A stretch of DNA of 32,079 nucleotides. It comes from an uncultured Candidatus Saccharibacteria bacterium (GTDB lineage: Bacteria > Patescibacteriota > Minisyncoccia > Minisyncoccales > UBA5738). The notes under the pieces were generated by a model, which was given only the letters and a program-made list of their open reading frames with translations, made no database searches and had not been told where the DNA came from. Shown piece after piece: positions 5,071 to 31,004 of the stretch; the first letter of the stretch is position 1, and each line of letters opens with the position of its first letter. The DNA is taken from positions 1-32,079 of the forward strand of contig CAZFZI010000004.1 in the NCBI GenBank assembly GCA_964523275.1, read 5' to 3'. The translations under genes and the position numbers were made by a program.

Positions 5071-5077
5071 CATTTCC

Positions 5078-5682: not shown

Positions 5683-5726
5683 TTTATAGCGCAAATCTTG
5701 CTTTTTGTCAAAACCAAAGTTAAAAT
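5683..5726. promoter_or_regulatory. Overlapping divergent promoters (rpmA and reductase operon)
   Basis: Minus strand: TTGACA (5711-5706), 17 bp, TATAAA (5688-5683). Plus strand: TTGCTT (5698-5703), 17 bp, TAAAAT (5721-5726), 7 nt before ATG 5734. Confidence 0.6.
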
Positions 5727-5733
5727 CCTTTAT

Positions 5734-6744: not shown

Positions 6745-7414
6745 TTTGCCGCGCCATGTCGGCCTGATCACCGACGGTAACCGGCGCTGGGCGCGCGAAA
6801 AAGGATTGCCGTCGTTTGAAGGGCATCGCCAGGGATGTGAAGCCGGGAAAAACATACTTCAAGCCGCTTACAACATAGGCATAAAGGAATTTACTGCATG
6901 GGCATTCTCAACCGAGAATTGGAACAGATCCGAAAAAGAAATCAACTATTTGATGAATCTTTTCGAAAAATGGCTCAATGATTCGTTAAAGAGATACAAG
7001 GATAAAAATGTTAAAATTCGCGTCGTTGGACAAAAATGGAAAGTGCCAAAATCATTTCAAAAAGTTATCACAAAAGCCGAACAAGAAACCGCGAACAATT
7101 CCGGAATGATATTTAACATGGCTCTAAGTTATGGCGGACGCGACGAAATCGTACAAGGAATTAAAAAAATCATTGAAAAAAACATCAAACCGCAAGATAT
7201 CAACGAGCAAACGGTTTCGGAAAACCTTTGGCTTCCGGACATTGATTTGATAATCCGCACCGGCGGAGAACAGCGGCTTTCGGGATTTTTGGCCTGGCAA
7301 GCAACCTATGCCGAACTTTTTTTCGTTAAAAAATATCTGCCGGATTTCACCCCGGAAGATTTCAATCAAATTTTAATCAAATACGGCCGGCGCCAGCGGC
7401 GATTTGGAAAATAA
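6728..7414 (+). CDS. uppS: cis-Prenyltransferase (undecaprenyl/polyprenyl diphosphate synthase)
   Basis: HVGLITDGNRRWA, AFSTENWNR, SYGGRDEI, IRTGGEQRLSGFLAWQ, RQRRFG. Confidence 0.96.
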   Translation: MEKQPNLPRHVGLITDGNRRWAREKGLPSFEGHRQGCEAGKNILQAAYNIGIKEFTAWAFSTENWNRSEKEINYLMNLFEKWLNDSLKRYKDKNVKIRVVGQKWKVPKSFQKVITKAEQETANNSGMIFNMALSYGGRDEIVQGIKKIIEKNIKPQDINEQTVSENLWLPDIDLIIRTGGEQRLSGFLAWQATYAELFFVKKYLPDFTPEDFNQILIKYGRRQRRFGK

Positions 7415-7419
7415 TCAAT

Positions 7420-8211
7420 ATGGACATAACTATCATCAAAATCGGCGGATCGGTGATCACAAAAAAGGAAAGCGACAAACCGAAGATCAACGCCGGCAAC
7501 ATCGGAAAAATCGGCGACCTGCTCCAAAAATTTCAGCAGCCCTATGTTTTGGTTCATGGAGTCGGATCGTTTGGGCATCCGATAGTTAAAAAAACCGGCA
7601 TTGACAAAAGCGTTATCAGCCAGGATCAGATATTGGCTTTCGCCAAAACCCAAAAACTGCAAAACGAATTGAATTGCGCGGTATGTGAAAAATTGATTAA
7701 AAAAGGAATCCCGGCATTCCCGGCGCAAGTATCAAGCCATGCGGTTCTGGAACGGGGAAGGCTGGTTTCAATGGAAACCGAAACAATAACCGGCCTTTTG
7801 CGGCTGAAAATGGTTCCCGTGGGTTATGGCGTGCCGGCTTATGACAGGGCGTGGGGATCGGCAATTCTTTCCGGCGATCAAATCACCCCTTATCTGGCCA
7901 AAAAAATAGGCGCAAAAAGAATCATTGAAGTGAGCGATGTTGAAGGAATATTCACCACCAATCCCAAAACCAAAAAAAACGCACGGCTCATATCCAAAAT
8001 CAACGCAGACAATTACAAAGAAATTGAAAAATGCCTTTCGGGAAGCACCGCCGCCGATGTCACCGGAGGAATGAAGCAAAAATACGTTGAACTAATTAGC
8101 GCCGCTCAAACCGGCATCGTCTGCCAAATCGTGGACATCAAACACTTCAAAGACGCGCTGGAAGGCAAGCCCTGCGGCACAATTATTGATTTGCGCGCAC
8201 AAAAACAATAA
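7420..8211 (+). CDS. ipk: Isopentenyl phosphate kinase (archaeal-type, amino-acid kinase fold)
   Basis: KIGGSVIT, VHGVGSFGH (IPK-type His), ILSGD, DVEGIF, DVTGGM. Confidence 0.88.
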   Translation: MDITIIKIGGSVITKKESDKPKINAGNIGKIGDLLQKFQQPYVLVHGVGSFGHPIVKKTGIDKSVISQDQILAFAKTQKLQNELNCAVCEKLIKKGIPAFPAQVSSHAVLERGRLVSMETETITGLLRLKMVPVGYGVPAYDRAWGSAILSGDQITPYLAKKIGAKRIIEVSDVEGIFTTNPKTKKNARLISKINADNYKEIEKCLSGSTAADVTGGMKQKYVELISAAQTGIVCQIVDIKHFKDALEGKPCGTIIDLRAQKQ

Positions 8212-8220
8212 TCTTAAAAT

Positions 8221-8562
8221 ATGCAAATAGTTGGCAAAACGCAAAGGAAAAAATTCAAAAACAGCGATTGTTGCACCGCGTTTGAATATCCAATGAACGA
8301 TAGCGATATCAATGGCGCGATAATTGAATTATCGGGAAGGTATCCAAAAAATGGTTTTGCCGTTAATGAAATTTGCAAAGAAATGGGCTATGTGATTTCC
8401 GGCTCCGGCAAGATTGTGGTTAAAAACAAGGAATATTTGATTGCCGAAGGCGATTTGATATTAATACAGCCTAACGAAAAATTCTATTGGCAGGGAAATA
8501 TGAAAATGTTTATGCCTTGCGCGCCGGCTTGGACGCCCGAACAACACAGAATTATCGAATAA
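8221..8562 (+). CDS. Cupin-domain protein
   Basis: EMGYVISGSGKI...EGDLILIQPNEK, C-terminal PAWTPEQH. Confidence 0.75.
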   Translation: MQIVGKTQRKKFKNSDCCTAFEYPMNDSDINGAIIELSGRYPKNGFAVNEICKEMGYVISGSGKIVVKNKEYLIAEGDLILIQPNEKFYWQGNMKMFMPCAPAWTPEQHRIIE

Positions 8563-8725
8563 ATAAAACTGCTCTTTCTTGTTTTTTGCCGAAAAAAAGA
8601 GCTATCCATTTGATTTTTTGCCAAAAAAAGGTTAGTCTGAAAACAGAGCTTATCTAAAGCGGGCGCGTTTGGCGCCTCTTTTCGCAAATAACCTTCATTT
8701 TTCAAAACAATTAATCAATTTAGAT

Positions 8726-9253
8726 ATGAATAATTTTGACAAAAATTGGAAAAACGCGAAAGAAAATATTTTCCGCCTTGAAGGGCGGGAGATATATTGC
8801 ATTCCGGGGGACTGGGAAAGTTTTGAAAAATGGAAAGAAAAAGATCTTGGATACAAACGGGGAAAAGAATGGCAAAAATGGATAAAATCGTTAAAAAGCG
8901 CGCAAACAAAAGGAATCGCCGTCCAGCGAATAAGGGTTGTTCCGAAACAATTGCCGGATTATATCAAATACGAAATTGACTCATGGCAGGAATTTTCCGT
9001 TAAAAACGGCGAGCAAATATTTTTCTTGGACGAAGATGAATATCAAAGAGCCGTTAGCGAATCCGGATTTGAGGCCAAAGATTTTTGGCTTTTTGACGAT
9101 GAGCGATTGCTGATTTTCAACTACAACAAAAACAACCAATTCACCGGCGACATACAAATCGCCGACAATGGAATGATAAACAGATATCGCGAAATGAAAC
9201 GCAAATTATTGAAACAATCAACGCCAATGGACTCGTTTATCAAAAAATTGTGA
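8726..9253 (+). CDS. DUF6879-like hypothetical protein
   Basis: FRLEGREIY, VQRIRVV, DYIKYE, GEQI, DFWLFDD motifs. Start placed at ATG 8726. Confidence 0.7.
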   Translation: MNNFDKNWKNAKENIFRLEGREIYCIPGDWESFEKWKEKDLGYKRGKEWQKWIKSLKSAQTKGIAVQRIRVVPKQLPDYIKYEIDSWQEFSVKNGEQIFFLDEDEYQRAVSESGFEAKDFWLFDDERLLIFNYNKNNQFTGDIQIADNGMINRYREMKRKLLKQSTPMDSFIKKL

Positions 9254-9465
9254 ACCTCTCCCCGCGCAACAATTCCTTTCAAAATCTTCCTCCAAACTCA
9301 AAATTAACGCCGCGTTTTTGCTAATCTGCCATGAGTTGAACCTATGGCAGATTTGTTTTAAATTTTTTGATTGAAAAATAAAGCGAAAGGAGGTAAAAAT
9401 AAATTGAAGAAGCAACAAAAGTATCCGGAAGGTTAGACCCTTTTGGAATTTAAATTATAAAAAAT

Positions 9466-9924
9466 ATGATCCAAACTGAAAACACCAAAGAAAAAATTCG
9501 GGAAGCGGTGCGGGAATTCAAAGCGCTTGACCACGCCGCCCTTCTGAAGGTTAATGTTTACGAGCCAACGATCAGCCATCGGATCGCGGTGTATTTGGGA
9601 AATTTGTTTCCCGGACTAAACGTTGATTGCGAATACAGCCAAAATTTATCGGGCACAAAAAAAGCCGGCCTCGCAAACAAAATCCGGCCGGATATTATTA
9701 TCCATAAAAGATTGAGTCAAGATAATTGCATAATTTTTGAAATCAAAAAAAGCGGCAAAGGCAGCCAAAAAGCCGCCGCCGACATTCAAAAATTGGAAGG
9801 CGCGGTGGGCGACAACCTTGGTTATGATTTGGGAGTTTTCATCGGCATCCTGAAACGCCGCGTTGATATCTGCTGGATTGAAAAAAATAACGGCATTTTA
9901 ACCAAAAATTGCGAAATCATCTAA
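9466..9924 (+). CDS. Putative PD-(D/E)xK nuclease-like protein
   Basis: E..ISHRIAVYL, VDCEY, RPDIIIH, FEIKK. Confidence 0.6.
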   Translation: MIQTENTKEKIREAVREFKALDHAALLKVNVYEPTISHRIAVYLGNLFPGLNVDCEYSQNLSGTKKAGLANKIRPDIIIHKRLSQDNCIIFEIKKSGKGSQKAAADIQKLEGAVGDNLGYDLGVFIGILKRRVDICWIEKNNGILTKNCEII

Positions 9925-9981
9925 TAAACCGCCATGAATAAGAAAATTATTTGTTTTGGTTTTTTAGTATATTAAGTTGAC

Positions 9982-10527
9982 ATGGTTACCGTTGAAACAA
10001 AAAATAATTTACCCAAGGAAGTAGAGGTAAAAGAATTTTTGGAGAAAGCACTGGCAAAATACCCTTATCCGATTTTTACGGATAAAGTCTTGGCTGAAAA
10101 AGAAGTAATACCGCATTCCAATCCGATATTAACCATCGGTGCTTGGAATTGGATTAAAAACTTCGATAAGCCGGAAGTGATTCTTTTTGAAATTTTTGTC
10201 CATGAACAATTCCACTGGTTCACGCTGTCGCTTGATGCAGATGTTTGGAATAAAGCGTTTACCCATATCAAAGCAAAATATCGGCGGCAGGGGGATGTTT
10301 TTGATTACCATAAATATGACAAAGAAAAAATTTTTTGGATAGAATTCGTGGTTTGTTTTAATACAATGCGTTATCTTCGCAAAGTGTTAAACAAAGGAGA
10401 ATATAATATGGTTTACGATTCCAGAAAAAACCGGCCATATCCAAAAACAGAAAAATTTATCGAAAAAAACTTTGAAAAAATTGACCAAGATCTGAAAAAA
10501 TTCGGCTTGGTTTACCATCAAAAATAA
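9982..10527 (+). CDS. Hypothetical protein with HExxH motif
   Basis: FVHEQFHW followed by a downstream Glu (FWIEFVV). AT-rich codon usage. Confidence 0.6.
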   Translation: MVTVETKNNLPKEVEVKEFLEKALAKYPYPIFTDKVLAEKEVIPHSNPILTIGAWNWIKNFDKPEVILFEIFVHEQFHWFTLSLDADVWNKAFTHIKAKYRRQGDVFDYHKYDKEKIFWIEFVVCFNTMRYLRKVLNKGEYNMVYDSRKNRPYPKTEKFIEKNFEKIDQDLKKFGLVYHQK

Positions 10528-10538
10528 TTCATAATTAT

Positions 10539-10757
10539 ATGGCAAATAATAAAAACATGGCGATATGCGGATTGGATTGTGGCTCCTGCCCGGCATTCAT
10601 AGCAACAAAAAATAATGATAGTGAATTGAGGATCAAGACCGGCAAGGGAAAGAACAGGATTTTGAACTCCGGTTATATAATAGATAACACCGTCAAGCTA
10701 ACCGCCGCGGATATCGAAAAGTATCTGGATTATTTGAACGCCAACGGCATCGAATAG
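10539..10757 (+). pseudogene. Truncated DUF3795-like Cys-rich protein, apparently chimeric
   Basis: AICGLDCGSCPAFIAT is a DUF3795-type N-terminus, but the later Cys clusters are missing. Confidence 0.5.
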
Positions 10758-10822
10758 CCCGCGACATTGAATCGTTCGCCCATCTCCCGACAAACGCGAA
10801 TTATCAAGCAATGTATATATTC

Positions 10823-10866
10823 AAATACGATTAAAATCGTATTTAAATCGTATTTAAATCGTATTT
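10823..10866. repeat. 11-bp iteron-like repeats
   Basis: AAATCGTATTT x3 in tandem (10834, 10845, 10856) plus one inverted copy with one mismatch (10823-10833). Confidence 0.85.
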
Positions 10867-10990
10867 ATTTACGTATATTGTCTATGATAAGTTGATACTA
10901 TTGCGGAGGTCAGACCCCCGCAGATTTTTAAATAGAGCCAAGGCAGCTTGAAAATTAATGCGAATCGGGCAATAATCAGAATGTCAAAGT

Positions 10991-21427: not shown

Positions 21428-22537
21428 TCAGCCCATCAGGCGGATTGCCACGCCCACCGCGGCAAAGATTATGCCCAAAATCCAAAACCGCATCGTCACG
21501 CTATGCGCCGGCCAACCGATGGCCTCAAAATGATGATGGATTGGCGTGGAAAGCCAAAGTTTTTTGCCGAACATTTTTTTATAGAAAAGCTGAACGATCA
21601 CCGATCCGGCATCTATCACCAACAAGCCCGCGATAATGGGCAAAACCACCACCGAATCGGTCAAAAACGCCACCACCGCCATTGCCGAAGTTAGCCCCAA
21701 AACACCAGTCTCTCCCATGTAAAATTTTGCCGGCGGAATGTTGAACCACAAAAACGAAAACAGCGCGCCGCAAATAATCGCGCAAAATGTCGCCAAATCC
21801 GCCTTACCCTGTGAAAAAGCGATCAGTGAAAACGCGGCGAAAATTGAAACGAACGCGCCGCCGGCAAGGCCGTCCAATCCATCAATCACTCCCCCTGCCC
21901 ACGACGCCAGCATCACCAACATAAAAAACGGAACATAATACCAGCCGATGAAAACATCAATTCCTTCCGGAAAATTCCCCCACAGCGGAATATGCATTGT
22001 TTGATATCCCAATTTTTCATAAAACCACCAGCCGCCCACCAATCCGATCACCGCCACCACCGCCAGCCGGCGCTTGAAGCTGATTCCCCCTCCCACATAT
22101 TTCCCGCCGCCATAAATTGTGATGATATCGTCAAACAAGCCGACCAGCGACCCCACAACCAGCGCGAAAAGAGGCAACCAAACCTCGCGCCGGGATAAAA
22201 AATCAAGCAAGACAAACCACCATGGATGCACAACTCCCAGGTTTTCCCAAAATTGGACAGGAATATTGGTAATTCCCCAAACAAAAAAAGTTAACAACAA
22301 CACCGAAATCCAAATCAACAATCCGCCGCCGCGCGGCACTGTTGTTTCCCGCTCCTTATGAAGTGAATGAAACACCGTTGCTTCTTCTCCGGTAATTGTT
22401 TTCCGGCGCGCATTTTTTTTCCAAAATTTAACACGGTTGAGAAACGCAATCAGACGCGGAGCGGACAAAAACGCGATTATTGAAGTTATCGCGGTAAAAA
22501 TCAACATTCTGATGATGTTAAAAGTGAATAATGTCAT
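21428..22537 (-). CDS. mraY: Phospho-MurNAc-pentapeptide transferase
   Basis: PRGGG, GLFDD, DGLDGL, WFNIPPAKFYMGETG, PIHHHFE. Confidence 0.93.
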   Translation of the reverse strand: MTLFTFNIIRMLIFTAITSIIAFLSAPRLIAFLNRVKFWKKNARRKTITGEEATVFHSLHKERETTVPRGGGLLIWISVLLLTFFVWGITNIPVQFWENLGVVHPWWFVLLDFLSRREVWLPLFALVVGSLVGLFDDIITIYGGGKYVGGGISFKRRLAVVAVIGLVGGWWFYEKLGYQTMHIPLWGNFPEGIDVFIGWYYVPFFMLVMLASWAGGVIDGLDGLAGGAFVSIFAAFSLIAFSQGKADLATFCAIICGALFSFLWFNIPPAKFYMGETGVLGLTSAMAVVAFLTDSVVVLPIIAGLLVIDAGSVIVQLFYKKMFGKKLWLSTPIHHHFEAIGWPAHSVTMRFWILGIIFAAVGVAIRLMG

Positions 22538-22538
22538 A

Positions 22539-23513
22539 TCAATTATGATTGTTGGCAAAATTCACCAACTTTTGCATTTCAACCACGCGCGCTTCCGACG
22601 AGGCCGACCCCAATAAAATATTGATATAATAACTTCCGGAATCGTTAGCAATAACCATAATCATACATCCGCCGGCTTTTTGGGTATATCCGGTTTTTCC
22701 GCCAGCCAAAGTTTGGCCGTCCCAAAGATTGATGCTAAAAATCCCGTTTTCCGTGCGATAAGGTCCGGACGTTATTGTTGTTGAAAAAATATCCGGATAA
22801 ACTTCAAGAATATGGCGCGTCAACGCCAGCAAATCAGCCGCGCTTGAATGATTGCACAAACCGCTCTCAATATCCAAGCCGGTGGCATTATAAAACAAAG
22901 TCTTTTCAAGTCCGATCTGAACAGCCTTTTGGTTCATCGCGGTAACAAACTCATCAATACCCATAAATTCGGCAAGCGCGTATGCCGCGTCGTTGCTGGA
23001 ATAAAAAAGCATCAAATGAACCAATTGACTGATGGTGTAATTTTCCCCTTCCAACAAATTGCCAAAAACCGGCACGTCATCTTGAACAGCGGCTTTTTGG
23101 CTGATTGTTGTTGTTTTTTCAAAATCATAAATTTGAGGATTTCCAAAAATTACCGCGGCGGCCATCAGCTTTGTGAGCGACGCGATAGGAAAAATTTCAT
23201 CGGTATTTTTTTTAAAAATTATATTTTCCCGGCCGGACGCGCCAACACGCAATAATAAAGCAGCCTTGGCATCCAATCGCAAATTTTGCTTTACAACCTT
23301 TTTGGGAATAACTAAAACAATATCGCTCATCGGCTGAGATATTTGCGCGTATAAATAATTTTCAAATCGCGCTTGACCGCTATTAATCGTCAAACACAGC
23401 GCGCAAGCCGAAACCGCCGCGCCAAAAAAAGATAACCATCTTTTAGCGCAAGAATTTTGTTTTTTCGCCCGCTTTCCGGGAGGCAGGGGCAATGGAATAT
23501 ACGACCTTATCAT
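22539..23513 (-). CDS. dacA: D-Ala-D-Ala carboxypeptidase (peptidase S11)
   Basis: PIASLTKLM (SxxK), SSND (SxN), GGKTGYT (KTG), N-terminal anchor. Confidence 0.9.
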   Translation of the reverse strand: MIRSYIPLPLPPGKRAKKQNSCAKRWLSFFGAAVSACALCLTINSGQARFENYLYAQISQPMSDIVLVIPKKVVKQNLRLDAKAALLLRVGASGRENIIFKKNTDEIFPIASLTKLMAAAVIFGNPQIYDFEKTTTISQKAAVQDDVPVFGNLLEGENYTISQLVHLMLFYSSNDAAYALAEFMGIDEFVTAMNQKAVQIGLEKTLFYNATGLDIESGLCNHSSAADLLALTRHILEVYPDIFSTTITSGPYRTENGIFSINLWDGQTLAGGKTGYTQKAGGCMIMVIANDSGSYYINILLGSASSEARVVEMQKLVNFANNHN

Positions 23514-24937
23514 TTTATCGGTTTTTCTTTTTTAATAATCGCCAACCCCAACTCTTTGAGCTGGTCGGAATTCACTTCCGAAGGCGCATTCATCATCAAA
23601 TCGCGGCCATCTCCGGTCTTGGGAAAAGCGATAGTTTCTCTGATATTGGGTTCTTGTTGTAACAACATAACCAAACGATCAAGCCCCCAAGCAATGCCTC
23701 CGTGCGGTGGAACACCATAAGAAAAAGCTTCAAGTATATGACCAAAATTTCTTTGAATACTCTGTTCGCTTAACCCCATTATGTCAAACACAGCCTTTAG
23801 CGCGATAGCATCATGATTGCGAATACTGCCGCCGCCGATTTCCCATCCATTAGCGACAATATCATATTGCGCCGCTAATATCTTTTCAATATTTTTTTTG
23901 CCCATCAAATCGTCAATAAATTCCGGCTTGGTTGCGGAAAACGGATTATGAGTAAACGTCCACTTATCATCATCGGTTTTTTCAAAAAAGGGAAAATCCA
24001 CCACCCAGCAAAAGGCAAGCAAATTGGGATTATTTTTGTCTTCGCGCATATCCGGCCGATCGCTACCGTATTTTCCCATTGCCTCCCGATAGGAAACTCT
24101 TGGAAAAGGAATCTGCTGAATAGTTTTTTCGGGGAACAATTCCTGCACCAACATAATTAACAAATCTTCGTTTAGTTGCATCATCTCTTCTTCGTCGATA
24201 AAGCTCATTTCAAGATCAAGTTGAGTAAATTCGGGCTGGCGATCACCGCGCGTATCTTCGTCGCGAAAACATCGCGCAATTTGAAAATACTTTTCAAATC
24301 CGGCAACCATTAAAAGTTGCTTGTATTGCTGGGGACTTTGAGGAAGCGCATAAAACAGCCCTTCTTGCAAACGCGCAGGAACCAAAAAATCGCGCGCACC
24401 TTCGGGAGTTGAGCGGGTAATATATGGCGTTTCGATTTCAATAAACTTTTTTTTAGTTAGAAAATCGCGAATAAAATTATTTATTTTATGTCGTATAGCA
24501 AAATTTTTTTGCAATCGTTGGCGGCGCAAATCAAGATAGCGATACTTCAAGCGGTTGTCTTCGCCGATTTCATAACCATCGCTGTCAATTGCAATCGGCA
24601 ATGTCTGCGCTTTTGATAAGACTTTCAAATCCCGCACCAAAATTTCCACGCCGCCGGTGGCAACTTTATCGTTAACCATATTTTCCGGGCGCGCCTTCAC
24701 CTCGCCAAAAATTTCCACCACCCACTCGCTCCTCACCTCTTTTGCCAAATCAAAAAACGGCGCTTTGGGAGTTACCACCATTTGAACCACGCCGCTTGCG
24801 TCGCGCAAATCAAAAAAAATCAGCTTCCCATGGGCGCGCACGATTTGCACCCAGCCGCAAAGCCTCACGGTTTGCCCGGCCATCTTCGGCGTTTGAGCAA
24901 TCATTGTCCTTGATAATTGTTTTTCCATATTTTCCAT
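23510..24937 (-). CDS. aspS: Aspartate--tRNA ligase (short form lacking the GAD insertion)
   Basis: FFDLRD, RYLDLR, TPEGARDF, ALPQSPQ, CFRDED..DRQPEFTQLD, PPHGGIAWGLDR. Start is 24937 or 24928. Confidence 0.96.
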   Translation of the reverse strand: MENMEKQLSRTMIAQTPKMAGQTVRLCGWVQIVRAHGKLIFFDLRDASGVVQMVVTPKAPFFDLAKEVRSEWVVEIFGEVKARPENMVNDKVATGGVEILVRDLKVLSKAQTLPIAIDSDGYEIGEDNRLKYRYLDLRRQRLQKNFAIRHKINNFIRDFLTKKKFIEIETPYITRSTPEGARDFLVPARLQEGLFYALPQSPQQYKQLLMVAGFEKYFQIARCFRDEDTRGDRQPEFTQLDLEMSFIDEEEMMQLNEDLLIMLVQELFPEKTIQQIPFPRVSYREAMGKYGSDRPDMREDKNNPNLLAFCWVVDFPFFEKTDDDKWTFTHNPFSATKPEFIDDLMGKKNIEKILAAQYDIVANGWEIGGGSIRNHDAIALKAVFDIMGLSEQSIQRNFGHILEAFSYGVPPHGGIAWGLDRLVMLLQQEPNIRETIAFPKTGDGRDLMMNAPSEVNSDQLKELGLAIIKKEKPIK

Positions 24938-24945
24938 ATATCCGG

Positions 24946-24974
24946 ATTCTACCCCATTTTGCCCCATATTTCAA
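24946..24974 (-). promoter_or_regulatory. aspS promoter
   Basis: Minus strand TTGAAA, 17 bp, TAGAAT, 8 nt upstream of ATG 24937. Confidence 0.65.
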
Positions 24975-25092: not shown

Positions 25093-25359
25093 TCAATTGA
25101 ACAATTTAAGTAACGCGGAAATTTCGGGCCGCGGATTATCAACGATTCGGTAATGGGTTTCGTAGCCAGCTTGCTCGCGATCAACAATATCGTTGGCAAA
25201 AAGAATCACCAAATGTTTTGACACAGCTTTATATGAACAACCTACAGCATCTTTAATCATACCTACCGACGCCCCATCGCGCCGGATCAAAAGATATTTC
25301 ACAATCTTGAGCCGATTGATATTGGCAAACGCTTTGAAAATTTTTTCAAGTTTTTTCAT
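25093..25359 (-). CDS. ArsR/SmtB-family winged-helix regulator
   Basis: FKAFANINRLKI, SVGMI, AVSKHL, VDREQAG...Y. Confidence 0.85.
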   Translation of the reverse strand: MKKLEKIFKAFANINRLKIVKYLLIRRDGASVGMIKDAVGCSYKAVSKHLVILFANDIVDREQAGYETHYRIVDNPRPEISALLKLFN

Positions 25360-25656: not shown

Positions 25657-25839
25657 TCATATAATTCCTTTATTTTTAAGACTTATAAATCCGCGGGCGG
25701 TTAAAATGATGTGATCCGCAAGCTCAATGCCCAGGATTTTGCCGGCTTCCGCCAATCTCTTTGTTATTGCCAGATCATCGCTTGACGGCTCCAAATTGCC
25801 GCTGGGATGATTGTGGCAAACGATTACGCTTGCGGCGCG
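25657..25839 (-). pseudogene. radC: RadC/JAB-domain C-terminal fragment
   Basis: Reads [46 protein letters not shown]...KGII*. An in-frame TAA lies immediately upstream and the N-terminal part is absent. Confidence 0.85.
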
Positions 25840-26029: not shown

Positions 26030-27685
26030 TTAGCTGTTTTTCATCGGCAAATCAATAATAAACTCGCTTCCTTTGCCCCATCCCTTGGACTCAACGCTAA
26101 TATTCCCGCCGTTGTTGGCAATAATTTGCGCGGCCAGATAAAGTCCAATACCCTTGCCCTCAACATTCACGCTTTTAGCCTTTTCACCTCGTTCAAAAAT
26201 ACGGCCAAACAACCCCTGCCGGTCTTTTTCGTTCATGCCGATACCGGTATCCTTCACCGAAATGCGCAACTTATCGCCCGCAACCGCCACTGATACGTTA
26301 ACGCCGCCGGTTTGAGTGTATTTAATCGCATTGTCAACGATATTGTAAACCGCTTCGCGAATTCCCCGCGCGTCAATTGGCACAAAAGGAATCGGGGCGG
26401 GCGGTTTTGCAAAGTCAAGATATAATTTTTTGGCAACCGCCACCGCGCGCAAATCTTCAATCACTCCGGCAATCAGCCCCACTGCATCGGTTGACTCCTT
26501 AACTGCCGCACCCTTGTTCATCTGAAAATGCGCCACATCCAAAAGCTCATCCACCAAATGAATCAATCTTTGGTTAGCTTCAAGCGAAGAGTTGATTTTT
26601 TCTTTGGCTTTGGCCGGAATTTTGCCATAGCTCCCCTCGCCGATCATGCTCAAATAGCCCTGTATCACCGACAACGGGCTACGCAAATGGTGCTGAGTGG
26701 AAAGCAAAAATTGGTTTTTGGCCGCGTCCAACCGCCGCAAATCCGCAGCTAAAACCTCGGCCTCCTCGCGCAATTCCCGCTCCCTCGCTGCCACCATCTC
26801 GGCCTCCTCCCTCCGTCGGCTTTCGTTAAGAGTGGTTTTGATAAGATAATATCCGAAAAAAGAAAACGATATCAAAATTAATAGCGAGATAAATTTTAAT
26901 CCGATTGTTGGCATTAAAAAGAATTGTATTGCCAAAATAATCCCCATCAATCCCACTAGTATTTCAGTCAAAATAACCCTCACGTCAAAAAGGTGGTATT
27001 TAAGAATGGCCAGTGCGATTATTGTGACGGCAACAATTTCCGCCCAATAAGCACCTATGGCATTTACGTTTAAACCGTAGGCCGGTAAAAAAGCATAAGC
27101 CCCTAAATTTAATATTATAAAGGCAACAAATAAAAATTTTACCGATTTGATATTTTCTTTTTCGGTTTTAATTTCAAATTTTTTACAACGTTTCAAAAAT
27201 AAAAATCTGTAAATTTCAAACAAAAACAGCAAAATATAAATTGAATAAAAAACTAAAAAAATATGATGAAAAATTTTAGCCTGAGTGTGATAACCCCATT
27301 CATAATAATATAAACCGGAAATAAAGTAGTCGCTCCTGCTCAAGACAAGAAAGAAAAAGGAAAAAAAATATCCAAACAAAAGCTTGAATTTATTTTTAAT
27401 TTCCCTGTGAGTGAAAATAAGTCCGAAGTGATACATCAAAACAGGGATAAAGACAACGCCGGCATAAACCATTCTATCCCAAAAAATAATATCTGTTTCG
27501 GATTTGGCGATATACATCATGTATGCCGAGAACAGCCAATTCGACATCGCAACACAAAAAATTAAAAAAATGATATTCAATTTTTTTCGTGGATTTTTCC
27601 AAAAAACAAACACCCCCAGTATCATCATCAATAACCCACTAATCAATGCGGAATATGAATTAATAAGCAGTAATAGCGCGTTCAT
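26030..27685 (-). CDS. Sensor histidine kinase with N-terminal 7TM (HisKA_7TM-like) domain
   Basis: Multiple TM helices, H-box HHLRSPL, N-box NIVDNAIKYT, DTGIG, GKGIGL. Confidence 0.93.
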   Translation of the reverse strand: MNALLLLINSYSALISGLLMMILGVFVFWKNPRKKLNIIFLIFCVAMSNWLFSAYMMYIAKSETDIIFWDRMVYAGVVFIPVLMYHFGLIFTHREIKNKFKLLFGYFFSFFFLVLSRSDYFISGLYYYEWGYHTQAKIFHHIFLVFYSIYILLFLFEIYRFLFLKRCKKFEIKTEKENIKSVKFLFVAFIILNLGAYAFLPAYGLNVNAIGAYWAEIVAVTIIALAILKYHLFDVRVILTEILVGLMGIILAIQFFLMPTIGLKFISLLILISFSFFGYYLIKTTLNESRRREEAEMVAARERELREEAEVLAADLRRLDAAKNQFLLSTQHHLRSPLSVIQGYLSMIGEGSYGKIPAKAKEKINSSLEANQRLIHLVDELLDVAHFQMNKGAAVKESTDAVGLIAGVIEDLRAVAVAKKLYLDFAKPPAPIPFVPIDARGIREAVYNIVDNAIKYTQTGGVNVSVAVAGDKLRISVKDTGIGMNEKDRQGLFGRIFERGEKAKSVNVEGKGIGLYLAAQIIANNGGNISVESKGWGKGSEFIIDLPMKNS

Positions 27686-27694
27686 TGATTAAAA

Positions 27695-28729
27695 TTATTC
27701 GCAAAGATTTAAATTTTTATCCAGCTTCTTGCCAAAACTTTGATATATATCAATTTTGAATTGGTTGGAATATTTATCCATTAACTTCAACATTTTTTCC
27801 GCCAAATCGGGTGTTGTGTATCCAACGTAATTGTGTGTATTTTTATCCATCGCCAAAAGTACGGTTTCGGCCAAACACGCGTATGCTTGATATTTTTTGA
27901 TTCCAATGTCAACACCAAAATCGATTGAGGACACATTAACAAGGCCACCGTCAATAATGGTGATATCCGGTCTTTCCGCGAGCAAGCCAGGTGACGTATT
28001 TCTGGGTTGAGTTATATCATAAACAATCGCATTTCTCTTTAAATAATCAGGTTTTATCAGTTGATCCATCGAAGAGGTCGCGATGACAGCAACCGCCGCT
28101 TTTTTAATGGATGAAATATCTGTTTCGAATCTCAACCTTGGATGAGGAAAAAATTTTTCTTTAAGTTTTGCTATTTTTTGTTCTCTATCAACAAGCAGAA
28201 CATTTAGCCCCCTTTTAATCAATAGTTCCGAAACTCCTTGGCCAATTGAACCGGCAGCACCAACAACGGCGATTTCCGCTTCAGCGATATTGATCTTCTT
28301 AATTTCAATAATCTTTTCCACTGCCCTAAAAACTACGCCCGTAGTAAGAGAATTGCCGCTCGTAATGCTAACGCCATCAACCCGGCCAACCAAATCTTTA
28401 CCACCATGAGTTACCGACGCGGTAAATTCCCCCAATCCGATGACTTTTACGCCCGAAGCTTTCATCATTTCAATTGCTTTGACAAGTTTATCAATAACTA
28501 TCTCTCTGGGAAAATTTAAAATTTGTTTTCCCAGAAGAGGAATCCACACAATCCAACCGATAATTTCTTTATTATTTTTAAATTTTACCTTACCCGCTTT
28601 AATCGGTCCGATAAAGGTGATAATTATTCTTAATAAAAATTCCGGAAACAACAAAAACAATGGCGAAACCTTGCCCATATCTTCTCTGGCCGAATGGCGA
28701 GGGTGCACTAAAAAAGCAAATTTATTCAT
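27695..28729 (-). CDS. Acyl-ACP reductase-like NAD(P)-dependent oxidoreductase (COG5322-like)
   Basis: FAFLVHP, IGLGEFTASV, TSGNSLT, VVGAAGSIG, DITQPRN, DGGLV, AYACLAET. Confidence 0.8.
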   Translation of the reverse strand: MNKFAFLVHPRHSAREDMGKVSPLFLLFPEFLLRIIITFIGPIKAGKVKFKNNKEIIGWIVWIPLLGKQILNFPREIVIDKLVKAIEMMKASGVKVIGLGEFTASVTHGGKDLVGRVDGVSITSGNSLTTGVVFRAVEKIIEIKKINIAEAEIAVVGAAGSIGQGVSELLIKRGLNVLLVDREQKIAKLKEKFFPHPRLRFETDISSIKKAAVAVIATSSMDQLIKPDYLKRNAIVYDITQPRNTSPGLLAERPDITIIDGGLVNVSSIDFGVDIGIKKYQAYACLAETVLLAMDKNTHNYVGYTTPDLAEKMLKLMDKYSNQFKIDIYQSFGKKLDKNLNLCE

Positions 28730-28753
28730 AGGATTTAGCTTTTGTAAAAAAGA

Positions 28754-28870
28754 TTATTTTTGGAACAAGACGCCAATAATTTGGCGGATCATGGGAAGTA
28801 TGTCAATAATTCCCCAAACTAAAATTGTGAAAAATCCGACAATTAAAATGAAATCAATCAATTTGTTCAT
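28754..28870 (-). CDS. 38-aa hydrophobic small protein (not in the ORF track)
   Basis: MNKLIDFILIVGFFTILVWGIIDILPMIRQIIGVLFQK*. Fills the gap between murC and the reductase on the same strand. Confidence 0.55.
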   Translation of the reverse strand: MNKLIDFILIVGFFTILVWGIIDILPMIRQIIGVLFQK

Positions 28871-28923: not shown

Positions 28924-30237
28924 TTATTTTAGCAGAGGTTGGAAAAAATCGTAAATATCGCCCGCGCCCATCACCAGCAAAATTTCGCCGCCTTTTATTT
29001 CGCGCTTCAATTTGGCAAAAATTTCTTTTGTGGGAACGTATTCAATTTTTGCGCAACCAATGGCGGCAACCAATTTTTGGCTGCTCACTTTTTTGGCGAT
29101 TGCTTGATTCTCGCGCCCGGTAACTTGATAAATATCGGTAATAAAAATCTTGTCTAACATTGATCCTTGAAACGCTTTGACAAAATCATAAAAAAGCAAA
29201 TGCGTGCGCCATGCCTGATGCGGCTGAAAGACACAGATAATCTTTTTTTTAGACCAAAGCTGGCGCGCGGCGGACATCGTTAATTTTATCTGCGTGGGAT
29301 GATGCCCATAATCAAAAACCGCGGTAATTTTTTTCCCGGCAATGCTTGTCGGACGCCGGTCAAACCGGCGCCACGAACCGCGATATTTTGCCAGAGATTT
29401 GAAGATAATATCATCGGCAACGCCAAGCATTCGCCCCACAACAAGAACGGCCAGCGCGTTGGCAATATTGTGCTCGCCGGGAACCCGCAAAATTTTTCGC
29501 AAGATTTCGGCTTCAACCATTTTTTGTGAATAATAAACAACGTCAATCCCCCTTTTTTTCATTATCACGCCAAGCTTTTTGGCATTGGCGTCATCGGCGC
29601 AAACCGCCAATTTGCCGCCTTCATTCAAATTGCCCGCAAATTTCTCAAACGCCGCCAGCAAATCAGCCTCATTTTCGTAACACTCCATGTGATCCATTTC
29701 AATATTGGTAATCACCGCGATTTTTGGATGATAATTTAAAAAAGCTCGGCCATATTCACAAGCTTCAACCACCAAAACTTTTGATTTGCCGCAACGAAAA
29801 TTTGAGTTGTTAAATTCTTTCAATTTCGTACCCACAATAACCGTTGGATCCAATTTGGCATCTGCCAGCATCAAGCCAATCATTGCCGCAGTCGTGCTTT
29901 TGCCGTGCGCGCCGGCCACCGCAACAGTTTCGCGGGTTTTGACAAGCTCGCCCAATGCTTGCGGGTAGCTCATAGTTTTGACACCCAAACGCAAAGCCTC
30001 TTTTAGTTCCGGATGGCTGTTTTTTACCGCCAAGCTGTAAACAACCAAATCCGGCGCGACAGACTTCAAATCCGCGGTTTTTTTGATAAAAACCCGCGCC
30101 CCTAATTTTTTTAGCGCCCCGGTGATCTCGGAAACCAGCAAATCCGAACCGCTCACTCGCCAGCCAAGCGCCAAATAATGACGCGCCAGCGCTGATATTC
30201 CAATACCGCCAATACCGATGAAGTGAACCTTTTTCAT
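28924..30237 (-). CDS. murC: UDP-MurNAc--L-alanine ligase
   Basis: HFIGIGGIGIS, GAHGKSTT, EACEY, TNIEMDH, GEHN, DYGHHP, FQPH, MGAGDI. Confidence 0.96.
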   Translation of the reverse strand: MKKVHFIGIGGIGISALARHYLALGWRVSGSDLLVSEITGALKKLGARVFIKKTADLKSVAPDLVVYSLAVKNSHPELKEALRLGVKTMSYPQALGELVKTRETVAVAGAHGKSTTAAMIGLMLADAKLDPTVIVGTKLKEFNNSNFRCGKSKVLVVEACEYGRAFLNYHPKIAVITNIEMDHMECYENEADLLAAFEKFAGNLNEGGKLAVCADDANAKKLGVIMKKRGIDVVYYSQKMVEAEILRKILRVPGEHNIANALAVLVVGRMLGVADDIIFKSLAKYRGSWRRFDRRPTSIAGKKITAVFDYGHHPTQIKLTMSAARQLWSKKKIICVFQPHQAWRTHLLFYDFVKAFQGSMLDKIFITDIYQVTGRENQAIAKKVSSQKLVAAIGCAKIEYVPTKEIFAKLKREIKGGEILLVMGAGDIYDFFQPLLK

Positions 30238-30240
30238 AAA

Positions 30241-30390
30241 TTCCAAATATCAAGCACCAAATACCAAAGTAAATCTCAATATTCAAAATTCAAGTTTTAA
30301 ATATTGGGATTTGAATATTGAATATTATTTGCCACCGTTTTTGGCGGGGTTCCGCTGAGGCGGGAGAAATTGGAATTTGGTTCTTGAAGC
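30241..30390. repeat. Inverted 7-nt repeat array with an embedded GC-rich double hairpin (30331-30365)
   Basis: caaatat caagcac caaatac ... attggga tttgaat attgaat [insert] attggaa tttggtt cttgaag. Confidence 0.65.
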
Positions 30391-30422: not shown

Positions 30423-31004
30423 TTAATCTTGGCCCAATTTGGCGCTTTCAAGCACCGTATAAATCGGGCCGCCGCGCCTCAATTGGCTCTCCATAATTTC
30501 AATTGATTCCACCAAAAAAACATGATTTATTTTTTCATCTATTAGCGGAATTTCCTCAATATCCATTTGGCGCAAATCAGTTTGGCGCAAACGCGCCAAA
30601 GTGACATGTGGCGCAAAGCCATAGTCCTCTCTGGGCCGGTATTCTCCCCCGCAAAACTCAAAAAAAGAGCTTTCAAGGTCTTTTTGCAAGCCGCCGATCT
30701 CTTGGGAATTTTCACCGACAGCCCAAATCATTTTGGGAGGAATTTTGGTTTGAGACCCATATGAAATCTTAACAAGGTTGATTTCAAAAGAATCATGGCG
30801 TTTGGCAACATCAACTGCGGTTTGACAAATTTCGCAAATTTCCTGGTCGTTGGCATTGCCCAAAAAATTTAAAGTGATATGCAAGTTTTCCGGCCTAGCC
30901 CAATTAGCCGGCAATTGAGGCCACCAACCGGAAAAAGACGACAGCTCTTGGCGTAGCTTTTCCGGCAAGTTTATGGCAATAAATATCCGATGCAAATTAT
31001 TCAT
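30423..31004 (-). CDS. thpR: RNA 2',3'-cyclic phosphodiesterase (2H family)
   Basis: RIFIAI, LHITLNFLG, PHVTLAR, GPIY. Confidence 0.93.
   Translation of the reverse strand: MNNLHRIFIAINLPEKLRQELSSFSGWWPQLPANWARPENLHITLNFLGNANDQEICEICQTAVDVAKRHDSFEINLVKISYGSQTKIPPKMIWAVGENSQEIGGLQKDLESSFFEFCGGEYRPREDYGFAPHVTLARLRQTDLRQMDIEEIPLIDEKINHVFLVESIEIMESQLRRGGPIYTVLESAKLGQD

What the first reader, a model, noticed from the sequence alone, without database searches (positions are those of the whole stretch)
26030..28870. Candidate lipid-signal synthase/receptor cassette: small peptide + acyl-ACP-reductase-like enzyme + 7TM histidine kinase
Seen: three co-oriented genes with 24-nt and 9-nt gaps, sitting behind murC. 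The enzyme keeps a Rossmann motif and AYACLAE. Established: cyanobacterial acyl-ACP reductase carries its catalytic Cys in a similar FACFAE motif and makes fatty aldehydes, normally together with an aldehyde-deformylating oxygenase. Neither that oxygenase nor a response regulator is in this window. Inference: the layout mirrors synthase/sensor pairs such as CqsA/CqsS, so this may be an undescribed communication or host-sensing system with an acyl-derived signal. That would be notable in a lineage that generally lacks fatty-acid synthesis.
Basis: partly seen in the sequence, partly recalled or inferred. Interest (0 to 1): 0.8.

Follow-up and report, generated by a model that had tools for sequence, protein, structure and literature searches.

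The report
Lipid-acyl reductase paired with membrane sensor kinase
A tiny-genome bacterium that has no acyl carrier protein keeps a fatty-acyl/aldehyde enzyme next to a seven-helix membrane sensor kinase, and relatives link or fuse that enzyme to membrane-lipid acyltransferases, so it looks like a lipid-building and membrane-sensing unit more than a chemical signalling pair.

Summary
Three co-oriented minus-strand genes lie behind murC, separated by gaps of 24 and 9 nt. They encode a 38-aa membrane peptide, a 344-aa enzyme of the AAR/PigE-N superfamily with its Rossmann motif and catalytic Cys285, and a 551-aa HisKA_7TM histidine kinase.

The proposed check passes. A 7TM kinase lies directly downstream of the enzyme in 16 of 77 testable homolog loci. 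These include 12 of 14 loci labelled as CPR and 2 from Nitrospirota. In a 301-genome phylum sample, 6 of the 14 enzyme-bearing genomes show the same adjacency.

- The genome has no detectable ACP, acyl-CoA/ACP ligase, FakB, PlsX or PlsY, so "acyl-ACP reductase" cannot be the activity.
- The enzyme's other recurrent partners are bulk glycerolipid acyltransferases: a PlsC-like gene directly upstream in 6 loci, and PlsY fused to the enzyme in 3 proteins.
- HisKA_7TM kinases occur in 133 of 301 genomes, mostly without the enzyme.

Best reading: a membrane-lipid acyl-handling enzyme co-transcribed with an intramembrane sensor kinase. The synthase/receptor reading survives as a rival. The boldest reading not excluded is that the enzyme supplies activated acyl groups (acyl-phosphate) in ACP-less CPR bacteria.

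The parts
28754..28870 (-). Gene for a 38-aa hydrophobic single-helix peptide, the first gene of the cassette
   Evidence: ORF. Orthologous small ORFs lie directly upstream of the enzyme in L014 (5876-5986), L018 (5800-5913) and L017 (1608-1727). They are 75, 41 and 47% identical, with 9 invariant positions. No Pfam or NCBIfam match. No similar ORF upstream in L016.
27695..28729 (-). 344-aa stand-alone Cys-dependent NAD(P)-linked oxidoreductase of the AAR / PigE-N / TAD superfamily
   Evidence: NCBIfam: PigE N-terminal region 6.5e-41, AAR TIGR04058 3.9e-18, both far below the curated cut-offs. PDB by sequence: 4ppm_A 9.9e-25, AAR 6jzu 1.9e-10. AlphaFold model pLDDT 94.6. Foldseek: AAR TM 0.75-0.77, carmabin TAD TM 0.74-0.78.
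27875..27877 (-). Codon of Cys285, the predicted acyl-enzyme nucleophile (AYACLAE)
   Evidence: Aligned with the Cys of AAR 'FACFAE' and with PigE. Invariant in A1, A2 and A7. The catalytic role of the equivalent Cys294 (AAR) and Cys296 (PigE) is stated in passages of PMC8341465.
28241..28261 (-). Rossmann dinucleotide-binding motif GAAGSIG (G157-G163)
   Evidence: G157, G160 and G163 are invariant. In the model the motif follows strand 152-156. D181 ends the next strand (176-180), which is the usual NAD-type signature (inference). 7 of 17 kinase-linked homologs have Asp there and 7 have Gly plus Arg/Lys.
26030..27685 (-). 551-aa sensor histidine kinase: 7TM input, coiled linker, HisKA, HATPase_c
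   Evidence: All three domains pass their Pfam cut-offs. H332 and the N, G1, F and G2 boxes are invariant in 15 enzyme-linked kinases. It is the only HisKA_7TM match in the genome.
26981..27646 (-). HisKA_7TM membrane sensor domain (residues 14-235)
   Evidence: Pfam PF16927 6.7e-13; same coordinates. The AlphaFold model of residues 1-300 has pLDDT 88.4 and shows seven long helices plus a short hairpin at 122-136. No solved structure matched at Foldseek E <= 0.001.
26039..26722 (-). Kinase core: HisKA (26528-26722, phospho-acceptor His332 at 26690-26692) and HATPase_c (26039-26374)
28924..30246 (-). murC, the upstream neighbour (context only; 53 nt before the peptide gene)
   Evidence: TIGR01082 382.6 bits, above its cut-off. 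murC is also upstream of the cassette in L017 and L018, but not in L014, where an LCAT-like gene sits there.

Best explanation
The cassette is a membrane-lipid acyl-handling unit under its own sensor.

The enzyme is a stand-alone member of the AAR / PigE-N superfamily. It loads an acyl group on Cys285 as a thioester and couples this to NAD(P)(H), interconverting an activated fatty acyl group and a fatty aldehyde. Because these bacteria lack ACP, the activated form is acyl-CoA or acyl-phosphate, not acyl-ACP. It works alongside glycerolipid acyltransferases (PlsC-like, PlsY) that build or remodel membrane lipids from scavenged chains.

The 7TM kinase is co-transcribed and probably translationally coupled. 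It senses the state of the membrane or a lipid made or used by the enzyme from within the bilayer, and passes phosphate to one of the genome's single-domain receivers. The 38-aa peptide is a small membrane subunit or anchor of this unit.

Shown: the fold, the catalytic residues, an intact kinase, and the conserved gene order and fusions.
Inferred: the substrate, the direction of the reaction, what the kinase senses, and the peptide's role.
For: 1. Superfamily and active site.

2. Tight conserved operon with the kinase:
- The gap is 9 nt in the window.
- Start and stop overlap or abut in G143 and G221. The ORF coordinates also overlap in L016, L017, L038, L086 and L088.
- The kinase is directly downstream in 16 of 77 loci and in 6 of 14 enzyme-bearing genomes of a 301-genome sample. 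A seventh has one gene between.
- In L074 the kinase sits 4 kb away, behind an AbiEii toxin gene and an IS200 transposase. This looks like a split by insertion.

3. Link to bulk lipid synthesis:
- A PlsC-like acyltransferase lies directly upstream of the enzyme in L029, L036, L046, L062, G143 and G221. All six have the kinase downstream.
- PlsY is fused N-terminally to the enzyme in G029, G285 and P0152, with the Cys kept in the two fusions that were aligned, G029 and G285.
- GpsA follows the G029 fusion.
- An LCAT-like lipase gene is upstream in the closest relative, L014. Lgt lies two ORFs upstream in G274, with a 126-aa ORF between.
- 2 of the 11 PlsY genes in the phylum sample are these fusions.

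4. No ACP, AMP-binding ligase, DegV/FakB or PlsY in the window's genome. Among the 14 enzyme-bearing genomes, ACP is in 1, PlsX in 3 and DegV in 0.

5. The kinase core is intact. Its input is a membrane helix bundle with only short loops.

6. Chemistry. Reversible Cys-thioester aldehyde dehydrogenases use acyl-thioesters or acyl-phosphates (passages of PMC12041015). PigE-N reduces a thioester (PMC8341465). The TAD relative is proposed to pass the acyl-Cys to another nucleophile (sections 5 and 8 of preprint 10.1101/2024.10.28.620694).
Against: - No biochemical or expression data exist. No RNA run holds the locus.
- 7 of 14 enzyme-bearing genomes have no adjacent kinase, and 133 of 301 genomes have HisKA_7TM kinases, mostly without the enzyme. 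Neither partner needs the other.
- In the window's own genome the PlsC-like genes lie on another contig (C11) and no PlsY was found. The lipid link for this locus rests on relatives.
- No response regulator is adjacent, so no regulatory target is known.
- Outside CPR, 32 of 77 loci pair the enzyme with a Pyr_redox_2 flavoprotein of unknown role. The family's core chemistry may therefore differ from what I assume.
- The cofactor signature is mixed among kinase-linked homologs.
- Genomes of kin are not independent, and no tree-based test could be run.
Confidence: 0.45

Rival explanations
1. Signal synthase and receptor pair. The enzyme makes a diffusible hydrophobic signal, such as a fatty aldehyde or a derivative. 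The adjacent 7TM kinase detects it, as CqsA/CqsS or LuxM/LuxN do, for cell-cell or host sensing.
For: - The synthase-like enzyme directly precedes a multi-pass kinase without a large extracellular domain, and the order is conserved in 16 of 77 loci and in two phyla.
- The enzyme is patchy (14 of 301 genomes) and the kinase family is common (133 of 301). This would fit many orphan receptors.
- In Nitrospirota the pair sits with an MFS transporter and a receiver-GAF-HD-GYP regulator.
Against: - The enzyme is fused to PlsY in 3 proteins and directly follows a PlsC-like gene in 6 loci. These are bulk-lipid contexts not expected for a signal synthase.
- Half of the enzyme-bearing genomes in the sample lack the adjacent kinase.
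- No known autoinducer-synthase family was hit.
- No acyl-thioester source is evident in the genome.
- The 7TM domains of the partner kinases are very divergent: 16-44% identity to the window's for 17 of 18 partner kinases (83% for L014), with only 3 invariant positions. This argues against one shared ligand pocket.
Confidence: 0.2
2. Accessory co-sensor. The enzyme binds the kinase and reports the cytoplasmic NAD(P)H/NAD(P)+ ratio or the pool of activated acyl groups to it. Its catalysis is secondary to signalling.
For: - Tight, probably translationally coupled gene pairs, which is typical of interacting proteins.
- The dependence is asymmetric: the kinase family is common without the enzyme, while the enzyme is often with the kinase.
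- Relatives AAR and GluTR hand their product to a bound partner protein (passages of PMC8341465).
Against: - The full catalytic set (Cys285, Rossmann glycines, TSGNxxT) is invariant, as expected for a working enzyme.
- No fused enzyme-kinase protein was seen among the 30 longer homologs; all 30 carry an aminotransferase.
- The enzyme stands alone or is fused to PlsY in other genomes.
- No binding test could be run.
Confidence: 0.12
3. Non-lipid substrate. The enzyme reduces or transfers another activated carboxyl group, for example an aminoacyl-tRNA ester (as GluTR does) or a cell-wall precursor. The cassette would then belong to envelope or peptidoglycan physiology next to murC.
For: - murC is upstream in the window, L017 and L018.
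- FemAB-like and DegT-type aminotransferase genes are upstream in L029.
- Aminoacyl-tRNA synthetase genes lie near the cassette in L014, L017, L036, L038, L046 and L047 and in the window (AspRS by its translation; label recalled, not scanned).
- GluTR is a distant structural relative.
- The TAD relative acts on peptidyl thioesters.
Against: - Similarity to GluTR covers only the dinucleotide-binding region (hemA 1.6e-4, residues 131-248; TM about 0.3).
- Housekeeping neighbours are expected by default in small packed genomes.
- The only fusions and overlapping-gene partners found are lipid acyltransferases.
Confidence: 0.1
4. No functional link. The enzyme and the kinase are neighbours only through operon packing in streamlined genomes.
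For: - CPR genomes are dense, and HisKA_7TM kinases are frequent in the phylum (133 of 301 genomes).
- 7 of 14 enzyme-bearing genomes lack the adjacency.
Against: - The same order and strand recur at 26-37% enzyme identity and in Nitrospirota.
- Start and stop codons overlap in several loci.
- The surrounding genes differ between loci while the pair stays together.
Confidence: 0.05

Closest known systems
Cyanobacterial acyl-ACP reductase (AAR, TIGR04058; PDB 6jzq/6jzu/6jzy)
   Same: - Same three-part fold (Foldseek TM 0.75-0.77, E about 1e-21).
- Same Rossmann motif.
- Catalytic Cys in the equivalent xACxAE motif.
- Stand-alone protein of about 340 aa.
   Different: - Only 20-21% identity. It scores 65.9 bits against a family cut-off of 449.7.
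- No ACP was detected in the genome.
- Asp181 at the end of the second Rossmann strand suggests NAD rather than NADPH (inference).
- The partner is a sensor kinase, not an aldehyde-deformylating oxygenase. I did not search for the oxygenase.
N-terminal thioester-reductase domain of PigE (prodigiosin MAP pathway; PDB 4ppm) and related reductase-aminotransferase fusions
   Same: - Best sequence match: 6.5e-41 to model positions 49-310, and 9.9e-25 to 4ppm_A.
- The same conserved Cys (Cys296 in PigE, passages of PMC8341465).
   Different: - PigE and all 30 longer homologs found carry a class III aminotransferase. The window's enzyme is stand-alone.
- It scores 140.5 bits against a cut-off of 850.
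- PigE works in a pigment pathway on a thioester. No such pathway is in the window.
Putative terminal amidation domain (TAD) of the carmabin pathway (PDB 9e4s and others)
   Same: - AAR-like fold (TM 0.74-0.78).
- An invariant Cys beside bound NAD.
- The family includes a cluster of discrete proteins with no biosynthetic-cluster context (preprint 10.1101/2024.10.28.620694, section 5).
   Different: - 16-18% identity.
- TAD usually ends an NRPS module and is proposed to release an amide.
- Its function is itself unproven (section 8).
Lipid-modifying enzyme gene beside a multi-pass membrane-sensing kinase (des-desKR of Bacillus subtilis; kdpFABC-kdpDE with the tiny KdpF peptide); recalled, not tested here
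   Same: - A target enzyme or transporter operon is directly joined to its own sensor kinase.
- The kinase senses from within the membrane.
- A very small hydrophobic peptide gene opens the operon (the KdpF analogy).
   Different: - No homology to Des, DesK or Kdp was tested or is claimed.
- No response regulator is adjacent here.
- Six of the genome's seven receiver matches lie in open frames of 124-159 aa, too short for a DNA-binding output domain; the seventh is a 467-aa hybrid kinase.
Autoinducer synthase/receptor pairs CqsA/CqsS and LuxM/LuxN (recalled, not tested here)
   Same: A gene for an enzyme acting on acyl chains lies next to a multi-pass histidine kinase that lacks a large extracellular domain.
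   Different: - The enzyme family is different.
- The enzyme here is fused or coupled to bulk-lipid acyltransferases in relatives.
- No diffusible product is known.

Membership tests
Long-chain acyl-ACP reductase (AAR, TIGR04058) | Scores at or above the curated equivalog cut-off (449.7 bits) | tested here: not met
   65.9 bits, E 3.9e-18.
Long-chain acyl-ACP reductase (AAR, TIGR04058) | AAR fold with the catalytic Cys in the xACxAE motif next to the nicotinamide site | tested here: met
   Foldseek TM 0.75-0.77 to 6jzy, 6jzu and 6jzq. C285 aligns with the AAR Cys and is invariant.
Long-chain acyl-ACP reductase (AAR, TIGR04058) | Acyl-ACP is available as substrate | tested here: not met
   No PP-binding match in the genome, which is 96.5% complete. 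ACP was found in 1 of 14 enzyme-bearing genomes. No AMP-binding ligase.
Long-chain acyl-ACP reductase (AAR, TIGR04058) | Works with an aldehyde-deformylating oxygenase | not tested
   No search for the oxygenase family was run. The gene downstream is a kinase.
PigE-type bifunctional thioester reductase/aminotransferase (NF053554) | Reductase domain fused to a class III aminotransferase; full-length score at or above 850 bits | tested here: not met
   The 344-aa protein matches only model positions 49-310 and scores 140.5 bits. Fused forms exist elsewhere: 30 of 30 longer homologs.
AAR / PigE-N / TAD superfamily (Cys-thioester, NAD(P)-binding two-domain fold) | Shared fold, Rossmann GxGxxG, and an invariant Cys in the interdomain cleft | tested here: met
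HisKA_7TM sensor histidine kinase (PF16927 + PF00512 + PF02518) | All three domains above the Pfam gathering scores; phospho-acceptor His and the N, G1, F and G2 boxes present | tested here: met
   49.4, 42.0 and 80.4 bits. H332, N448, D479-G481-G483, F493 and G512-G514 are invariant in 15 partner kinases.
Two-component system | A cognate response regulator is identifiable | tested here: inconclusive
   None is in the window. The genome has 7 receiver matches. Three of them (on C69, C44 and C9) are not next to a kinase match. No pairing could be assigned.
Autoinducer synthase/receptor pair (CqsA/CqsS, LuxM/LuxN type) | Conserved adjacency of the enzyme and a membrane kinase | tested here: met
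   16 of 77 loci. 6 of 14 genomes directly, plus 1 with one gene between.
Autoinducer synthase/receptor pair (CqsA/CqsS, LuxM/LuxN type) | The enzyme makes a diffusible product to which the kinase responds | not testable with these tools
   Needs expression, metabolite analysis and kinase assays.
PlsX/PlsY/PlsC phospholipid pathway (as a functional partner, not by homology) | Gene fusion or operon coupling with PlsY or PlsC | tested here: met
   In relatives:
- PlsY-enzyme fusions: G029 = P0151 (PlsY 152.6 bits, above the 137.2 cut-off), P0152 (190 bits) and G285 (124.6 bits, below the cut-off).
- A PlsC-like gene directly upstream in 6 loci.

Not met in the window itself: PlsC-like genes lie on contig C11 and no PlsY was found.

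The most novel reading that the evidence does not exclude
The enzyme is the missing ACP-independent acyl activator of CPR bacteria. It would run like GAPDH or aspartate-semialdehyde dehydrogenase on an AAR scaffold: it oxidises a scavenged fatty aldehyde (or takes up another acyl donor) to an acyl-Cys285 thioester. It then releases the acyl group to phosphate, giving acyl-phosphate for PlsY, or hands it directly to the PlsC-like acyltransferase. The 7TM kinase closes a feedback loop by reading the resulting membrane lipid state.

This would answer the question raised by Probst et al. 2020 (PMC7242380, passages): how do CPR bacteria that have PlsY and PlsC, but no PlsX or ACP, obtain acyl-phosphate?
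Probability: 0.15. Interest if true: 0.85.

Novelty: new variant of a known kind. Interest (0 to 1): 0.62.

Why it matters
CPR/Patescibacteria have ordinary fatty-acid-based membranes but lack the known machinery to make or activate fatty acids. How they assemble membranes is an open question (PMC7242380).

Here a conserved enzyme with thioester chemistry is coupled or fused to the very acyltransferases whose acyl donor is unknown, and is wired to a membrane sensor kinase. This gives a concrete candidate that can be tested at the bench, both for ACP-independent acyl handling and for how such cells monitor a membrane built from borrowed lipids.

It also gives a first functional context to two groups that have none I could find:
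- the stand-alone, non-cyanobacterial branch of the AAR family, which databases label 'shikimate/semialdehyde dehydrogenase';
- HisKA_7TM kinases, the sensor domain found in 133 of 301 sampled genomes of this phylum.

Even if the signal-pair reading turned out to be right, it would be a new signalling chemistry in a symbiotic lineage.

Tried and rejected
- **Complex prediction (enzyme alignment A1 with kinase alignment A3).** It was never accepted because the queue was full. No result exists, so nothing can be said about binding.
- **Script machine.** Lost. No trees, no co-phylogeny test of enzyme against kinase, and no automated neighbourhood census could be run. Neighbour ORFs come from my simple ORF picker. 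On high-GC loci it sometimes chose a wrong-strand ORF: 20 of the 77 downstream neighbours had no Pfam family, several of them large opposite-strand ORFs. The count of flavoprotein neighbours (32 of 77) is therefore a lower bound.
- **Identity ranks of enzyme and kinase.** The ranks of enzyme and kinase identity to the window run roughly parallel. I do not count this as co-evolution.
- **Sequencing runs.** 10 DNA holders, labelled lake water metagenome. No RNA holder is listed.
- **Rfam and tRNA scans of the window.** Nothing found.
- **Promoter and terminator scan.** 16 promoter-like sites against 13.4 expected, and 4 terminator-like sites against 7.6 expected. This is not informative, and no operon boundary is claimed from it.
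- **Foldseek of the 7TM model against the PDB.** No match at E <= 0.001. There is only generic seven-helix (GPCR-like) resemblance, with query TM up to 0.53. I do not take this as homology.
- **Protein atlas.** Only unnamed or generically named clusters.
- **Is the peptide a relic of a PlsC N-terminus?** I aligned 8 PlsC-like proteins but never compared the peptide with them. This stays untested.
- **Other long PlsY proteins.** 10 that I checked have no reductase domain, so the fusion is rare.
- **Literature.** I found no description of a reductase-7TM kinase pair or a PlsY-reductase fusion in searches ('HisKA_7TM'; 'COG5322'). The library is limited to open-access papers and preprints. The lipocone paper was irrelevant.
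- Failed on a coordinate slip and was corrected.

Full report
**What is there**

On the minus strand, behind murC (28924-30246; TIGR01082 382.6 bits, above its cut-off), lie three ORFs:
- 28754-28870, 38 aa;
- 27695-28729, 344 aa;
- 26030-27685, 551 aa.

The gaps between them are 24 and 9 nt. The window is contig C4 of an 833-kb genome in 108 contigs, rated 96.5% complete. Its nearest loci carry labels such as Paceibacterota, Minisyncoccales, Nealsonbacteria and Patescibacteria. I therefore treat it as a CPR/Patescibacteria genome. The DNA is held by runs labelled lake water metagenome.

**The enzyme**

- By sequence it is closest to the N-terminal region of PigE (6.5e-41, model positions 49-310 of 837). 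Next comes cyanobacterial acyl-ACP reductase (AAR, 3.9e-18). Both scores are far below the curated family cut-offs.
- Against solved structures by sequence, the best matches are PigE 4ppm_A (9.9e-25) and AAR 6jzu/6jzq (1.9e-10). The AYACLAE cysteine aligns with the AAR 'FACFAE' cysteine.
- An AlphaFold model built on 26 homologs has pLDDT 94.6. It matches AAR at TM 0.75-0.77 and the carmabin 'TAD' domain at TM 0.74-0.78. Everything else matches only through the Rossmann half.
- C285, G157, G160, G163, T123, G125, T129, D238 and P242 are invariant in my alignments.
- Passages of PMC8341465 state that the PigE N-terminal domain is a thioester reductase, and that AAR, GluTR and PigE load the acyl group on this cysteine.
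- The TAD preprint (abstract and sections 5 and 8) shows that a relative may pass the acyl-Cys to a nucleophile other than hydride.
- Asp181 closes the second Rossmann strand. By the usual rule this suggests NAD rather than NADP. It is not uniform: 7 of 17 kinase-linked homologs have Asp, and 7 have Gly plus Arg/Lys.

**The kinase and the peptide**

- The kinase passes the Pfam cut-offs for HisKA_7TM, HisKA and HATPase_c. It keeps His332 and the N, G1, F and G2 boxes.
- It is the only HisKA_7TM protein of the genome.
- The model of its first 300 residues (pLDDT 88.4) is a bundle of seven long helices with short loops and one small hairpin. No solved structure matches at E <= 0.001.
- The peptide is a single hydrophobic helix with no family match. 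Orthologous ORFs sit in the same place in L014, L018 and L017, at 75, 41 and 47% identity. This is about the same divergence as the enzyme (79, 45 and 46%), so it is a real gene. L016 has no such ORF in its 174 upstream bases.

**Is the adjacency conserved?**

Yes. A scan of one genome per species returned 80 loci encoding relatives; 77 of them have a downstream neighbour.
- In 16 of the 77 loci the neighbour on the same strand is a HisKA_7TM kinase. These loci are L014-L018, L029, L036, L038, L046, L047, L062, L086, L088, L089, L091 and L093. In L036 and L046 the 7TM part is seen only by phmmer.
- Of the 14 loci whose titles carry a CPR label, 12 have the kinase. L084 ends at the enzyme. In L074 the kinase lies 4 kb downstream, behind an AbiEii gene and an IS200 transposase.
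- L089 and L091 are from Nitrospirota. There the order is MFS transporter, enzyme, 7TM kinase and, in L089, a receiver-GAF-HD-GYP regulator.

In an even sample of 301 genomes of the phylum:
- The enzyme occurs in 14 genomes.
- The kinase is directly downstream in 6 of them: G000, G143, G221, G267, G253 and G088.
- It is one gene away in G274.
- It is not adjacent in 7: G050, G299, G029, G163, G212, G197 and G285.

Start and stop codons overlap or abut in several loci. Kin are not independent. Even so, the linked enzymes are only 25-44% identical to the window's, apart from L014 at 79%.

**What else travels with the enzyme?**

- A PlsC-like acyltransferase (PF01553) lies directly upstream in L029, L036, L046, L062, G143 and G221. 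Each time the kinase is downstream.
- In G029 and G285 the enzyme is the C-terminal half of a fusion whose N-terminal half is PlsY, the acyl-phosphate:glycerol-3-phosphate acyltransferase. The catalytic residues are kept.
- A third fusion, P0152, turned up in the protein collection.
- GpsA follows the G029 fusion.
- PlsY is rare in the phylum sample (11 of 301 genomes), and 2 of those 11 are these fusions.
- The closest relative, L014, has a 765-aa LCAT-like gene upstream. G274 has Lgt two ORFs upstream, with a 126-aa ORF between.
- Outside CPR the partner is different: a Pyr_redox_2 flavoprotein follows the enzyme in 32 of 77 loci (TIGR03169-like).
- All 30 longer homologs are PigE-type fusions to a class III aminotransferase.

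**What acyl donor could there be?**

The window's genome shows none of the following:
- ACP;
- AMP-binding ligase;
- DegV/FakB;
- PlsY or PlsX;
- ketoacyl synthase, FabH-type or thiolase condensing enzyme.

It does have two PlsC-like genes. They sit in a cluster on contig C11 with FabG-like, cyclopropane-synthase, FabA/Z-FabK-like, FabK-like, AccC and BCCP genes.

Among the 14 enzyme-bearing genomes, ACP is found in 1, PlsX in 3 and DegV in 0.

So 'acyl-ACP reductase' cannot describe the activity. Probst et al. 2020 (PMC7242380, passages) noted that Nealsonbacteria have PlsY and PlsC but no PlsX or ACP, and asked what makes the acyl-phosphate.

**How it most likely works**

*Shown:* a catalytically complete AAR-superfamily enzyme, an intact 7TM kinase, a conserved and tightly coupled gene pair, and repeated coupling or fusion of the enzyme to glycerolipid acyltransferases.

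*Inferred:*
- The enzyme interconverts an activated long-chain acyl group (CoA thioester or acyl-phosphate) and the aldehyde, through an acyl-Cys285 intermediate. It serves membrane-lipid assembly or remodelling.
- The kinase senses membrane or lipid state from within the bilayer, and signals to single-domain receivers.
- The peptide is a small membrane subunit.

The general chemistry is established: reversible Cys-thioester aldehyde dehydrogenases use acyl-thioesters or acyl-phosphates (PMC12041015, passages). I give this reading 0.45.

**Rivals**

It fits the layout and the patchy distribution of the enzyme. It does not fit the PlsY fusions, the PlsC coupling, or the very divergent 7TM domains.
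- **Accessory co-sensor (0.12).** It fits the tight coupling. It could not be tested, because the complex prediction never got into the queue.
- **Non-lipid substrate (0.10).** It is suggested only by housekeeping neighbours.
- **Chance packing (0.05).** It is disfavoured by conservation at low identity.

**Comparison with what is known, and novelty**

- The enzyme works like AAR and PigE-N, but it is not a member of either curated family. It fails both score cut-offs, it has no ACP to act on, and it has no fused aminotransferase.
- The kinase is an ordinary member of HisKA_7TM. I found only listings of that domain and no function for it.
- My searches found no description of the enzyme-kinase pair or of the PlsY fusion, within an open-access library only.
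- I rate it a new variant of known kinds: known folds in an undescribed, conserved combination.
- The boldest reading that the data allow is that this enzyme supplies acyl-phosphate or an acyl-enzyme donor to PlsY/PlsC in ACP-less bacteria. I give it 0.15. It would bear on a stated open question.

**Limits**

- There is no expression or biochemical evidence.
- No tree-based test and no binding prediction could be run.
- The lipid link for this particular locus rests on relatives.
- Supplementary files of the cited papers were not opened.

Noticed in passing
G000 contig C11 (locus L110), about 2633-10884: A lipid gene cluster sits in this otherwise FAS-poor genome. It holds a FabG-like SDR, a cyclopropane-fatty-acid synthase, a FabA/Z-FabK-like fusion, a FabK-like NMO protein, two PlsC-like acyltransferases, biotin carboxylase and BCCP. 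No condensing enzyme, thiolase or ACP was found anywhere in the genome. This could be an ACP-independent chain-modifying or elongating set.
   Followed up: partly
G000 contigs C5, C31, C69, C44, C9: Six of the seven response-regulator matches lie in open frames of only 124-159 aa; the seventh is a 467-aa hybrid kinase. The genome therefore appears to have only single-domain receivers and no classical DNA-binding response regulator.
   Followed up: no
loci L019-L092 (32 of 77), e.g. L019:7083-8381, L052:7061-8383: Outside CPR (Deinococcota, Actinomycetota, Bacteroidota, Bacillota, Ignavibacteria) the same enzyme family is followed by a ~430-460-aa Pyr_redox_2 flavoprotein, TIGR03169-like. This is a second conserved pair of unknown function. 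In Cohnella (L024) the order is kinase, LuxR-type regulator, enzyme, flavoprotein, MMPL transporter. Paenibacillus (L032) has ORFs of matching sizes and the flavoprotein, but I did not scan its flanking genes.
   Followed up: partly
window 25657-25794 (-) and 25093-25359 (-): Downstream of the kinase lies a 45-aa remnant of the C-terminal end of a RadC-like JAB domain (2.1e-12), followed by a small weak HTH_20 protein. The closest relative, L014, has LeuRS and a full RadC after its kinase. This stretch of the window therefore looks rearranged or decayed.
   Followed up: partly
L074:7141-9789: An AbiEii toxin-type gene and an IS200-like transposase lie between the enzyme and its 7TM kinase. This looks like a mobile insertion that split the pair.
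   Followed up: partly
L017:1724-2797: The enzyme gene of this relative is read as two abutting ORFs, 187 and 169 aa. This is either a frameshift or an assembly error.
   Followed up: no
L093:4162-5622 and 6994-9186; L086:6974-10268: In the Komeilibacteria locus, a 7TM-only protein lies upstream of the enzyme and a 7TM-GAF-kinase lies downstream. In L086 two 7TM kinases follow the enzyme in tandem.
   Followed up: no
window 21428-24967 and 30423-31004: The surrounding genes are cell-envelope and housekeeping genes: a Glycos_transf_4 (MraY/WecA-like) protein, a D-Ala-D-Ala carboxypeptidase and a LigT-like phosphoesterase. The 485-aa ORF at 23510-24967 looks like an aspartyl-tRNA synthetase by its translation; that label is recalled and was not scanned.
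   Followed up: partly
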